Assembly: GCF_056746865.1 (NCBI RefSeq)
Contig: NZ_CM163382.1
Reading direction: 5' to 3' (one strand)
Length of the DNA: 64,000 nt
Shown: positions 18,001 to 21,000 of the stretch, piece by piece
Layout of the letters: each line of letters opens with the position of its first letter
Numbering within the stretch: the first letter of the stretch is position 1
Program-made: the position numbers

Positions 18001-21000
18001 ACCCTGCCGCGCGGCCTGACGACCGTTATTTGCGACCCTCATGAAATCGTCAACGTGATGGGCGAAGCCGGTTTCGCCTGGTTTGCCCGCTGTGCCGAAC
18101 AGGCAAGGCAAAACCAATACTTGCAGGTCAGCTCTTGCGTACCCGCCCTGGAAGGCTGCGATGTTAACGGTGCCAGTTTTACCCTTGAACAGATGCTCGC
18201 CTGGCGGGACCATCCGCAGGTTACCGGCCTTGCAGAAATGATGGACTACCCTGGCGTAATTAGCGGGCAGAATGCGCTGCTCGATAAACTGGATGCATTT
18301 CGCCACCTGACGCTGGACGGTCACTGCCCGGGTTTGGGTGGTAAAGAACTTAACGCCTATATTGCTGCGGGTATTGAAAACTGCCACGAAAGTTATCAGC
18401 TGGAAGAAGGACGCCGGAAATTACAACTCGGCATGTCGTTGATGATCCGCGAAGGGTCCGCTGCCCGCAATCTCAACGCACTGGCACCGTTGATCAACGA
18501 ATTTAACAGCCCGCAATGCATGCTCTGTACTGATGACCGTAACCCGTGGGAGATCGCCCATGAAGGACACATCGATGCCTTAATTCGCCGCCTGATCGAA
18601 CAACACAATGTGCCGCTGCATGTGGCATATCGCGTCGCCAGCTGGTCGACGGCGCGCCACTTTGGTCTGAATCACCTCGGCTTACTGGCACCCGGTAAGC
18701 AGGCTGATATCGTCCTGTTGAGCGATGCGCGTAAGGTCACGGTGCAGCAGGTACTGGTGAAAGGCGAACCGATTGACGCGCAAACCTTACAGGCGGAAGA
18801 GTCGGCGAGACTGGCACAATCCGCTCCGCCATATGGCAACACCATTGCCCGCCAGCCAGTTTCCGCCAGCGACTTTGCCCTGCAATTTACGCCCGGAAAA
18901 CGCTATCGGGTCATTGACGTCATCCATAACGAATTGATTACGCACTCCCGCTCCAGCGTCTACAGCGAAAATGGTTTTGATCGCGATGATGTGTGCTTTA
19001 TTGCCGTACTTGAGCGTTACGGGCAACGTCTGGCTCCGGCTTGTGGTTTGCTCGGCGGCTTTGGTCTGAATGAAGGCGCGCTGGCTGCGACGGTCAGCCA
19101 TGACAGCCATAATATTGTGGTGATCGGTCGCAGTGCCGAAGAGATGGCGCTGGCGGTCAATCAGGTGATTCAGGATGGCGGCGGGCTGTGCGTGGTACGT
19201 AACGGACAGGTCCAAAGTCATCTACCGTTACCCATTGCCGGCCTGATGAGCACCGACACGGCGCAGTCACTGGCGGAGCAAATTGACGCCTTGAAAGCCG
19301 CCGCCCGTGAATGCGGTCCGTTACCGGATGAGCCGTTTATTCAGATGGCGTTTCTTTCCCTGCCAGTGATCCCCGCGCTGAAACTAACCAGTCAGGGGCT
19401 GTTTGATGGCGAGAAGTTTGCCTTCACCACGCTGGAAGTCACTGAATAATAAATAAATATCCTCCGGCATAGCCGGAGGTTTTTCAAATGCGCCTATAAG
19501 GCTCTCTTACCAGCCGCGCCCTAACAGGCGCACACGATCTGACATTTGCATCCAACTTCGTTACTTACGGCCCGTAAACGGGCTGCCCGGATAGGGAATC
19601 GATAACTGCTCTCCCATTTTATCCTCTTCAAGCTGGTGCTTTATGTAATCCTGTATCTTCGCCGTGTTCTTACCCACCGTATCGACGTAGTACCCTCTGC
19701 ACCAGAACTCCCTGTTCCTGTATTTGAATTTCAAATCACCAAACTGCTCGTAAAGCATCAGACTGCTTTTCCCTTTCAGATATCCCATAAAGCCGGATAC
19801 GCTCATTTTGGGCGGGATCTCCACAAGCATATGGATATGATCTGCACAGCATTCAGCTTCCAGAATCCGTACACTTTTCCACTCACACAGCTTTCTCAAA
19901 ATACTGCCTATTGCTCTACGCTTCTCTCTGTAGAACACCTGTCTTCGGTATTTTGGCGCAAATACTATGTGATATTTACAGTTCCATCGGGTGTGCGCTA
20001 AGCTCTTTTCGTTCCCCATTGGGACCCCCTTTTGATTTCTTGTTTGACACTTGCAGTTGCCAGACCGCAAGGTGTTTTAACAAATCAAAAGGGGTTTTAA
20101 TAACTGGCTTAAAGCTGAAAGCTTTCCGGAACCCCCAGCCTAGCTGGGGGTTTTCTGTGCACAAAAAAAGCCCGGCGTCATGCCGGGCAAAAGTCACCAG
20201 TTACGTTTATGCCACTGTCAACTGCTGAATTTTTTTCTCGCGGCGGATTTTGCGTTCTTCCATCACCGCCACTATCGCCATCAGGCAGATACAACCAATC
20301 GCGGCGATATCCAGCGCAGCGAAGGTGCCTGCCCAGCCGGTAAGGCCGAATACTGGCGTCCCATCGGCAATCATTCCCAGACCTAACTTGGCAAAGCTGT
20401 CGCCAATCAGGTAAGCAAAGGTGCCTTTAATACCATCGGCAGCGCCAATCGCTTTTTTAGGTACAAAGCCAACAGCAGCCACACCAATCAACAATTGCGG
20501 GCCAAAGACCAGGAAACCCAACGCAAAGAGAGAAGCCAGGTAGATATATTCGTTGCTGGCGTGTTGATACACACCGAGCGTGGCGATAATCAGCGCCAGC
20601 GCGATACAGGCCACCAGGCCACGGCGACCGTTCGCCAGGTCAGAGAGCCAGCCCCACAGCAGCGTACCGACCAGCGCGCCAGCTTCAAACAGCGTAAAGC
20701 CCTGAATCGCCACCGCTTTAGAGAGTTTCAGTTCCTGGAACGCGTACACAGTTGACCACTGGTCGATACCAATACGTACCACATAGAGGAAAATGTTGGC
20801 GAAGCACAGCAGCCAGATCACTTTGTTTTTCAGCACATACTCAACAAAGATCTGCCACTTGGTCATATCGGTAGATTCTGTCTCTTTGTCCTCTTCGCTG
20901 ATCTCCTCGCCGAACAGTTCTTCAGCTTTGCCGAGGCCATAAGATTCCGGGGAGTCGCTGCCGTAACGCAGGCCGATAAAACCGACAATCAGCGCGATAA

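What the first reader, a model, noticed from the sequence alone, without database searches (positions are those of the whole stretch)
19455..20160. IS200 copy inserted between ade and uhpT
A 0.7-kb element with a 152-aa IS200-type TnpA and the characteristic structured left end lies within a few bp of the ade stop codon and just upstream of the uhpT terminator. IS200 is absent from K-12 as far as I recall, so this is a strain marker. The insertion sits between convergent genes, so polar effects are unlikely.
Basis: partly seen in the sequence, partly recalled or inferred. Interest (0 to 1): 0.45.

Follow-up and report, generated by a model that had tools for sequence, protein, structure and literature searches.

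The report
IS200C copy behind the uhpT terminator
This is an ordinary, intact copy of the small mobile element IS200C, inserted between the adenine deaminase and sugar-phosphate transporter genes directly after the transporter's transcription stop signal; it is absent from K-12 and present at this site in about 3% of complete E. coli genomes.

Summary
Window 19452-20162 (711 bp, or 712 from 19451) is an intact IS200C element on the minus strand.

- **Gene:** tnpA lies at 19561-20019 and encodes a 152-aa Y1/HUH transposase (Pfam 3.8e-38; NCBIfam IS200 equivalog 147.7 bits). HIH and Y-x3-Q are present.
- **Ends:** the structured left end matches Rfam STnc490 at 146 bits. The left and right hairpins are direct homologues. 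There are no terminal inverted repeats and no target duplication.
- **Empty site:** K-12 carries GAATAAT-A7-GCCCGG, and K-12-lineage chromosomes have no IS200 match anywhere.
- **Distribution:** the occupied ade-uhpT site occurs in 141 of 5426 complete E. coli genomes. IS200C itself occurs in about 2050.
- **Position:** the insertion lies 2 nt after the ade stop codon and immediately after the U7 tract of the uhpT/UhpU terminator, which stays intact. The IS right-end hairpin gives ade a hairpin+T5 on its own strand. Polar effects are therefore unlikely.

One extra finding concerns the target. In 8 other E. coli copies and 116 unique flanks from many phyla, the left end abuts a stable hairpin followed by TTNTT. 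Of those 116 flanks, 98% are strongly structured, against 21% of T-run-matched controls. This suggests a preference for terminators.

The element is already known, so interest is low.

The parts
19452..20162 (-). IS200C element, 711 bp (712 bp if the T at 19451 is counted)
   Evidence: Extra DNA relative to K-12. Ends fixed by comparison with 8 other E. coli copies and tandem Y. pestis copies. 100% identical to RefSeq copies annotated IS200C.
19561..20019 (-). tnpA, 152-aa Y1 (HUH) transposase; HUH = H61-I-H63, catalytic Y125 with Q129
   Evidence: ORF list. Pfam Y1_Tnp 3.8e-38. NCBIfam NF033573 147.7 bits. Aligns to solved TnpA structures 2ec2, 2f4f, 2a6m, 2xm3. Motifs located.
20153..20162 (-). 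Left-end tip GTGCACAGAA, containing the A-rich stretch 5' of the hairpin foot (candidate guide sequence)
   Evidence: Conserved across the E. coli copies; variants in other taxa all end in GAA/CGA. The guide role is inferred by analogy with IS608.
20130..20152 (-). Left-end hairpin (10-bp stem, 3-nt loop); in Salmonella IS200 this is the terminator that blocks read-in transcription
   Evidence: Perfect inverted repeat I8. Fold. Unique in the window. Function taken from PMC4513863 and PMC5435999.
20026..20094 (-). [quoted passage not shown]
   Evidence: Inverted repeat I1. Fold z -5.2. Rfam STnc490 structure. Function from PMC4513863.
20029..20152 (-). Rfam RF01405 STnc490 match, full length 1-124
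   Evidence: 146.1 bits against a gathering score of 56, E 2e-31.
20011..20100 (+). [quoted passage not shown]
   Evidence: Placed by homology with Salmonella IS200 as described in PMC4513863. Not tested here.
19461..19479 (-). Right-end subterminal hairpin (8-bp stem, 3-nt loop), a direct homologue of the left-end hairpin; terminator-like on both strands
   Evidence: Direct repeat D1, 78% to the left-end hairpin. Fold z -3.5. Terminator scan hits on + and -.
19452..19460 (-). Right-end tail ATATTTATT, ending in TTATT (candidate right cleavage site)
   Evidence: Conserved to this base in all 9 E. coli copies. It directly abuts the next copy's GTGC tip in Y. pestis tandems.
20163..20188 (-). 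Insertion target: the uhpT/UhpU intrinsic terminator (hairpin 20170-20188, T7 tract 20163-20169), left intact
   Evidence: Identical in K-12, where it is the 3' end of uhpT and of the sRNA UhpU. Terminator scan.
19447..19449 (+). ade (adeD) stop codon, 2 nt before the IS right end
   Evidence: ORF 17683-19449. adeD annotation in K-12 and strain 118UI.

Best explanation
The feature is an intact copy of insertion sequence IS200C (IS200 group of the IS200/IS605 family). It sits on the minus strand between the convergent genes adeD and uhpT, and was acquired by one E. coli lineage.

**Shown here.** It carries one gene, a 152-aa Y1 HUH transposase. It has homologous subterminal hairpins in direct orientation at both ends, no terminal inverted repeats, no target duplication and no tnpB. 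It is absent from K-12.

**Inferred from the family mechanism (IS608 and ISDra2 work).** A TnpA dimer binds the two hairpins on the 'top' strand, which here is the window minus strand. It cuts 5' of the left tip and 3' of the right-end TTATT, and releases a single-stranded circle. It then pastes the circle 3' of a T-rich pentamer (TTNTT) in single-stranded target DNA on the lagging-strand template.

**This insertion.** The target was the T-tract of the uhpT/UhpU intrinsic terminator, so hairpin plus T7 remain and neither gene is disrupted.

**Expression, inferred from Salmonella IS200.** Transposase expression should be almost off, through four controls: the left-end hairpin stops read-in transcription from uhpT, the 5'UTR stem-loop hides the ribosome-binding site, the antisense RNA art200 blocks translation, and Hfq binds the 5'UTR. 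In practice the copy is therefore a stable lineage marker.
For: Identity: Pfam PF01797 3.8e-38; NCBIfam IS200 equivalog 147.7 bits against a cut-off of 55; solved homologues including IS608 and ISDra2 TnpA, with aligned HUH and Tyr; Rfam STnc490 146 bits; 100% identity to RefSeq IS200C copies, same protein accession WP_000526135.1 as copies at other loci.

Insertion: K-12, O157 and other strains have the empty site with no duplication. 141 of 5426 genomes are occupied. K-12 chromosomes have no IS200 place.

Architecture: the left and right hairpins are direct repeats (D1); no other ORF of any size fits inside the element.

Strand: the window plus strand has GC skew -0.05, so the IS top strand lies on the lagging-strand template. 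This is the family's known bias, as stated in PMC5027513.

Target: 9 of 9 E. coli copies and 116 unique flanks from other taxa have the left end abutting hairpin + TTNTT.

Regulation: PMC4513863 and PMC5435999.
Against: No transposition, excision or RNA was measured here, and IS200 itself is notoriously inactive in the laboratory (PMC4513863). The mechanism is transferred from IS608 and ISDra2, which carry different target sequences. The cleavage sites of IS200 are inferred from sequence comparison only. One base of the boundary (19451) cannot be assigned. The copy could have reached some of the 141 genomes by homologous recombination of the flanking region rather than by descent.
Confidence: 0.95

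Rival explanations
1. The copy is a dormant or domesticated element whose present role is as an sRNA locus (5'tnpA and art200) rather than as a transposon, as proposed for IS200 in Salmonella.
For: The 5'UTR/STnc490 structure is perfectly conserved. The literature reports that IS200 is essentially immobile and that its 5'tnpA sRNA regulates invF and other regulons in Salmonella (PMC5435999 and PMC12594629). The junctions are identical in the occupied genomes I inspected (118UI; 100%-identity rows).
Against: The tnpA ORF and both ends are intact and identical to copies at many different E. coli loci, with up to 35 places per genome. That implies recent transposition in E. coli. No E. coli target of these RNAs is known to me or was tested.
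Confidence: 0.2
2. The terminator-adjacent position is not a targeting preference. It is survivorship: IS200 inserts after any T-rich pentamer, and only the harmless insertions behind terminators persist.
For: The distance from hairpin foot to insertion point is not fixed (0-7 nt). The invariant part of the flank is only the TT at -1/-2 within TTNTT. T-runs are naturally enriched at terminators (14% of TTTTT positions are terminator-like against 1% of random positions).
Against: 98% of 116 flanks are strongly structured against 21% of T-run-matched controls. The figure is the same (98%) for 52 Y. pestis copies, a species known to tolerate many IS-disrupted genes (general knowledge). New copies also land behind the hairpin+TTATT of another copy's right end.
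Confidence: 0.4
3. The region is not a mobile element but a native, variable part of the ade-uhpT spacer.
For: None beyond its location in an intergenic spacer.
Against: The same 711 bp occurs at many unrelated loci and on plasmids (10760 places in 3099 genomes). 5417 of 5426 complete genomes match this region but only 141 hold the occupied form, and every unoccupied site I read was a clean empty site.
Confidence: 0.01

Closest known systems
IS200C / IS200 of Escherichia coli and Salmonella enterica (IS200 group, IS200/IS605 family)
   Same: Size (707-711 bp), a single 152-aa tnpA, the left-end terminator hairpin, the SD-sequestering 5'UTR stem-loop, the STnc490/art200 region, no inverted repeats and no target duplication. 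RefSeq uses the IS200C name for the identical protein.
   Different: Nothing of substance. Only the insertion site (ade-uhpT) is specific to this lineage.
IS1541 of Yersinia pestis / Y. pseudotuberculosis
   Same: Identical 23-nt left-end hairpin, near-identical right end (…CCTCCGGCTATGCCGGAGGATATTTATT), and the same hairpin+TTNTT flank at the left end.
   Different: The tip is GTGCCCAGAA rather than GTGCACAGAA. Copy number is much higher, and tandem copies occur.
IS608 (Helicobacter pylori) and ISDra2 (Deinococcus radiodurans), the mechanistic models of the family
   Same: Homologous Y1 HUH TnpA (E 4e-19 and 2e-16 to the solved structures). Subterminal hairpins in direct orientation. Insertion 3' of a short sequence next to the left end. 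Lagging-strand-template bias.
   Different: They also carry tnpB, and their targets are TTAC and TTGAT rather than a T-run. Their left-end hairpins lie further from the tip. IS200's own cleavage chemistry has not been shown.
REP-associated tyrosine transposases (RAYT / TnpA-REP)
   Same: Same HUH-Y1 fold family, acting on extragenic hairpins.
   Different: The protein scores only 32 bits against the NCBIfam REP_Tyr_transpos model (cut-off 80). RAYTs are single-copy and not flanked by IS ends.

Membership tests
IS200 group of the IS200/IS605 family | Encodes a Y1 transposase of about 150 aa (Pfam PF01797 / NCBIfam NF033573) | tested here: met
   PF01797 130.7 bits against a cut-off of 23. NF033573 equivalog 147.7 bits against a cut-off of 55.
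IS200 group of the IS200/IS605 family | HUH motif and catalytic Tyr (with downstream Gln) intact | tested here: met
   H61-I-H63 and Y125-IKH-Q129, aligned to DHIH and Y..Q of solved TnpA 2ec2 and 2f4f.
IS200 group of the IS200/IS605 family | No terminal inverted repeats; similar subterminal hairpins at both ends in direct orientation | tested here: met
   D1: the left- and right-end hairpin regions are direct repeats at 78% identity. No inverted repeat joins the two termini. Both hairpins fold.
IS200 group of the IS200/IS605 family | No target-site duplication | tested here: met
   Empty sites in K-12, O157 and four other strains differ from the occupied site only by the insert. The only ambiguity is 1-3 nt of a homopolymer.
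IS200 group of the IS200/IS605 family | tnpA only, no tnpB (separates the IS200 group from the IS605 and IS1341 groups) | tested here: met
   The element is 711 bp. The only ORFs of 40 aa or more that fit inside it are tnpA and an antisense reading frame across tnpA (19636-20001).
IS200 group of the IS200/IS605 family | Left end carries the terminator hairpin and the SD-sequestering 5'UTR stem-loop (STnc490/art200 region) | tested here: met
   Rfam RF01405 full-length match, 146 bits. Folds. Features as described in PMC4513863.
IS200 group of the IS200/IS605 family | Insertion 3' of a short specific sequence abutting the left end, top strand on the lagging-strand template | tested here: met
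   The flank is TTNTT in 9 E. coli and 116 other copies. GC skew places the top strand on the lagging-strand template. Actual cleavage was not tested.
IS200 group of the IS200/IS605 family | Near-identity to the ISfinder IS200C reference over its whole length | not testable with these tools
   ISfinder is not available here. The proxy is 100% identity to RefSeq copies whose transposase PGAP names IS200C.
IS200 group of the IS200/IS605 family | Single-strand 'peel and paste' transposition by TnpA | not testable with these tools
   Needs biochemistry or genetics. Inferred from IS608 and ISDra2.
RAYT / TnpA-REP | Passes the REP-associated tyrosine transposase model | tested here: not met
   NF047646 32.2 bits against a cut-off of 80.

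The most novel reading that the evidence does not exclude
IS200-group elements may actively home to intrinsic transcription terminators. On this reading the transposase, guided by the A-rich sequence 5' of its left-end hairpin, recognises 'GC-rich hairpin + TTNTT' in single-stranded lagging-strand template DNA. That structure copies the element's own right end (GAAAAA-hairpin-ATATTTATT). This would explain three things: why copies always sit co-oriented behind a host gene, why the element carries its own read-in terminator, and why copies stack in tandem. It would make IS200 a structure-specific 'safe-site' transposon, rather than one that is merely filtered by selection. A family-level enrichment of terminator-like sequence upstream of IS200/IS605 is already reported (bioRxiv 10.1101/2025.07.22.666184). 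The older IS200 and IS1541 papers could not be read here, so part of this may already be described.
Probability: 0.35. Interest if true: 0.45.

Novelty: already known. Interest (0 to 1): 0.12.

Why it matters
For this window it matters little. The element is a known IS at a harmless intergenic position, already annotated in 141 RefSeq genomes, and is useful only as a lineage marker or an assembly and typing landmark. It leaves adeD, uhpT and the Hfq-dependent sRNA UhpU structurally intact. The wider pattern seen on the way is more interesting: IS200-group left ends almost always abut an intrinsic terminator, across phyla. If that reflects targeting, it would explain the low genetic cost and long persistence of this family, and it would define a natural 'safe harbour' insertion rule.

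Tried and rejected
- **Other copies in the window:** none. The left-end hairpin is unique.
- **Weak Rfam hits:** ZEB2_AS1_2, SorX and isrF in or near uhpT score far below their gathering scores. I treated them as chance; SorX and isrF simply match the uhpT terminator.
- **Fixed distance from target hairpin to insertion point:** I tested whether this mimics the 9-nt right-end tail. It does not; the distances are spread over 0-7 nt, so I do not claim fixed geometry.
- **Literature on IS200 target choice**: only one preprint gives a family-level statistical note. Odaert 1998 (PMC106867) is not held.
- **The insert as native spacer:** rejected.
- **Sequence type or phylogroup of the 141 carriers:** not determined; no tool here does that directly.

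Full report
**What is there.**
- Between the ade (adeD) ORF (17683-19449, plus strand) and the uhpT ORF (20207-21598, minus strand), the window holds about 0.7 kb that K-12 lacks.
- A global alignment to K-12 MG1655 gives two collinear blocks, window 19300-19450 and 20163-20350, with 712 extra bases between them.
- The K-12 spacer reads GAATAAT-A7-GCCCGG. O157 and strain 300033 have the same A7 allele, and three other strains have A8.
- The insert contains one substantial ORF, on the minus strand at 19561-20019, 152 aa.

**What it is.**
- The protein is a Y1 (HUH) transposase. It scores 130.7 bits on Pfam PF01797, E 3.8e-38, and 147.7 bits on the NCBIfam equivalog 'IS200/IS605 family transposase' against a cut-off of 55.
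- It aligns over its whole catalytic core to the solved TnpA structures of Sulfolobus (2ec2, 2f4f), IS608 (2a6m, 2vhg) and ISDra2 (2xm3).
- The HUH motif (H61-I-H63) and the catalytic tyrosine with its glutamine (Y125-x3-Q129) are present.
- It fails the RAYT model: 32 bits against a cut-off of 80.
- The non-coding left end, 20029-20152 on the minus strand, is a full-length match to Rfam STnc490: 146 bits against a gathering score of 56.
- Megablast against 5426 complete E. coli genomes finds the identical sequence annotated as 'IS200/IS605-like element IS200C family transposase'. There are 10760 places in 3099 genomes, and about 2050 genomes hold a near-full copy.
- The transposase at this site in strain 118UI is WP_000526135.1. 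Copies at the mcbR-pqqU, ybhL, mdoH and htpX loci of other strains carry the same protein, so this copy is not degenerate.

**Exact ends.**
- Eight other E. coli copies share sequence with the window from GTGCACAGAAAACCCCC… to …GGAGGATATTTATT, and diverge outside those points.
- In Y. pestis, tandem IS1541 copies join …GGATATTTATT directly to GTGCCCAGAA.
- The element is therefore window 20162 down to 19452, 711 bp.
- The one further T at 19451 fits an ancestral A8/T8 allele of the target, or a 712-bp element. I cannot decide between these.
- There is no target duplication and there are no terminal inverted repeats.
- Instead, the two subterminal hairpins are direct homologues on the top strand (D1): GAAAA-CCCCCAGC-TAG-GCTGGGGG at the left end and GAAAAA-CCTCCGGC-TAT-GCCGGAGG at the right end. 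This is the hallmark of the IS200/IS605 family.

- 'Absent from K-12' was tested with a chimeric query of 2400 nt of K-12 nepI region plus the 711-nt IS in the opposite orientation. K-12 MG1655 (NZ_CP032667.1), C600, J53, ER1709 and a series of MG1655-derived chromosomes each return exactly one place, the nepI region. They therefore hold no IS200 at megablast sensitivity.
- 'Strain marker': a query of 300 nt + IS + 300 nt is covered at 80% or more in only 141 of 5426 genomes. Of the 5426, 5417 match the region at all, and the unoccupied sites I read are clean empty sites.
- 'Polar effects unlikely' is reasonable. The right end begins 2 nt after the ade stop codon. The left tip follows the seventh T of the uhpT terminator, whose hairpin (20170-20188) and T7 tract are unchanged.
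- In K-12 that terminator is also the 3' end of the Hfq-dependent sRNA UhpU (PMC12704781), so UhpU should be unaffected.
- The IS right-end hairpin reads as a hairpin+TTTTT terminator on the ade strand. K-12 ade runs into the antisense of the uhpT terminator, which has no T-tract on that strand. The ade 3' end may therefore be moved, not damaged. This last point is an inference and was not measured.

**How it works.**
- Shown here: the gene, the motifs, the hairpins, the absence of a duplication, and the position.
- Taken from the literature on Salmonella IS200 (PMC4513863 and PMC5435999), there are four layers of repression of tnpA:
  - The left-end hairpin (IS nt 11-33 here; nt 12-34 in their numbering) is a bidirectional terminator that stops about 85% of read-in transcripts.
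  - The second inverted repeat (window 20026-20094) sequesters the Shine-Dalgarno sequence AAGGGGGT (20024-20031).
  - A 90-nt antisense RNA, art200, blocks 30S binding. Its predicted position here is about 20011-20100 on the plus strand.
  - Hfq adds further repression.
- As a result, the element is almost immobile in the laboratory.
- Taken from IS608 and ISDra2: TnpA dimers bind the hairpins on one strand, excise it as a single-stranded circle and insert it 3' of a short target next to the left end, preferentially on the lagging-strand template.
- The window's plus strand has negative GC skew throughout (-0.05). The IS top strand (minus) is therefore on the lagging-strand template, as the model expects.

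**A pattern seen on the way.**
- In all eight other E. coli copies I fetched, the left tip directly follows the hairpin and T-run of the terminator of a gene transcribed towards the IS: pqqU, ybhL, mdoH, uspE, wzzB, htpX, carB and plaP.
- In an evenly spaced sample of the whole hit list, the match in most near-full-length copies runs 5-27 nt past the left tip into the A-run/terminator flank.
These came from Yersinia, Vibrio, Brenneria, Dickeya, Edwardsiella, Oxalobacter, Mailhella/Desulfovibrio, Bacillota, Peptococcaceae, Saccharibacteria and Elusimicrobiaceae assemblies.
- Among 116 unique flanks, positions -5 to -1 read T-T-N-T-T, with -1 T in 115 and -2 T in 114.
- Of these flanks, 82% pass a strict terminator-like rule. 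The comparison figures are 1.1% of random positions and 8.6-14% of positions after T-rich pentamers.
- The 38-nt flank has a median folding energy of -18 kcal/mol. 98% are at or below -8, against 21% of T-run-matched controls (Mann-Whitney p 1.6e-66). The 52 Y. pestis flanks give the same 98%.
- The distance from hairpin foot to insertion point is not fixed.
- My reading: the target pentamer TTNTT resembles the element's own right terminus TTATT. The A-rich sequences 5' of both IS hairpins could pair with these T-rich sites, as the guide sequences of IS608 do.
- Whether the hairpin is required for targeting, or merely marks the places where insertions are tolerated, cannot be settled from sequence.
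- A recent preprint reports the family-level enrichment of terminator-like sequence upstream of IS200/IS605 (10.1101/2025.07.22.666184). The older IS200 and IS1541 papers were not available to me. I therefore make no novelty claim for this pattern.

**Verdict.**
- The feature is a known insertion sequence, already annotated at this very site in public genomes, so novelty is 'already known' and interest is low.
- The only part with some wider interest is the possible terminator-homing rule of the IS200 group, which needs an unselected insertion library or biochemistry to test.

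Noticed in passing
L016-L135; window 20130-20152: The exact 23-nt IS200 left-end hairpin AACCCCCAGCTAGGCTGGGGGTT occurs in species-representative genomes of very distant taxa: Oxalobacter, Vibrio, Mailhella/Desulfovibrio, Bacillota, Peptococcaceae, Saccharibacteria and Elusimicrobiaceae MAGs, as well as Enterobacterales. This implies wide horizontal spread with an invariant hairpin. MAG contamination was not excluded.
   Followed up: partly
L003-L010 and L016-L135, flanks 5' of the left end: IS200-group left ends almost always abut a stable GC-rich hairpin followed by TTNTT, which looks like an intrinsic terminator. 98% of 116 unique flanks are strongly structured, against 21% of T-run-matched controls.
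   Followed up: yes
L081, L082, L084, L098, L128 (Y. pestis NCTC5923): Tandem IS1541 copies in which one copy's left tip directly follows another copy's right end (…GGAGGATATTTATT|GTGCCCAGAA, sometimes with one extra T). The right end therefore behaves as an insertion target.
   Followed up: partly
window 19450-19451 and 20163-20169; L001, L011-L015: The empty ade-uhpT site is polymorphic in the length of the A/T run: A7 in K-12, O157 and strain 300033, and A8 in three other strains. This leaves one base of the IS boundary unassignable.
   Followed up: yes
window 19461-19485, plus strand: The IS right-end hairpin followed by TTTTT forms a canonical intrinsic terminator on the ade strand. K-12 ade has no T-tract after the shared hairpin, so the IS may give ade a new, cleaner 3' end.
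   Followed up: partly
window 20163-20428 minus strand (K-12 uhpU, b4829; L001 5731-5996): The insertion point is exactly the 3' end of the Hfq-dependent, FliA-activated 3'UTR sRNA UhpU. Its terminator hairpin and U7 tail are intact, and the first 188 nt beyond the insertion point (20163-20350, which covers most of it) is 186/188 identical to K-12.
   Followed up: partly
window 20029-20152: The Rfam STnc490 model matches the tnpA-sense (minus) strand and includes the left-end terminator hairpin. The literature describes STnc490/art200 as the RNA antisense to the tnpA 5'UTR, so the model's strand and extent do not correspond to art200 as mapped.
   Followed up: no
hits H77-H83 (pO157-size plasmids of about 85-98 kb, plus one of 54 kb) and H67-H72 (136-211 kb plasmids): Unannotated 140-145-bp fragments of the IS200 right end (92-94% identity) sit on O157-type plasmids. 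344-bp left-half fragments of IS200C sit on large plasmids, in two cases interrupted by IS1.
   Followed up: no
window 20143-20176: A 79% palindrome is centred on the TGCA of the left tip. The terminator arm plus T-run (GCCGGGCTTTTTTT) is largely complementary to the IS sequence AGAAAACCCCCAGC. This fits pairing between the T-rich flank and the A-rich stretch 5' of the left-end hairpin, but it could be coincidence.
   Followed up: no
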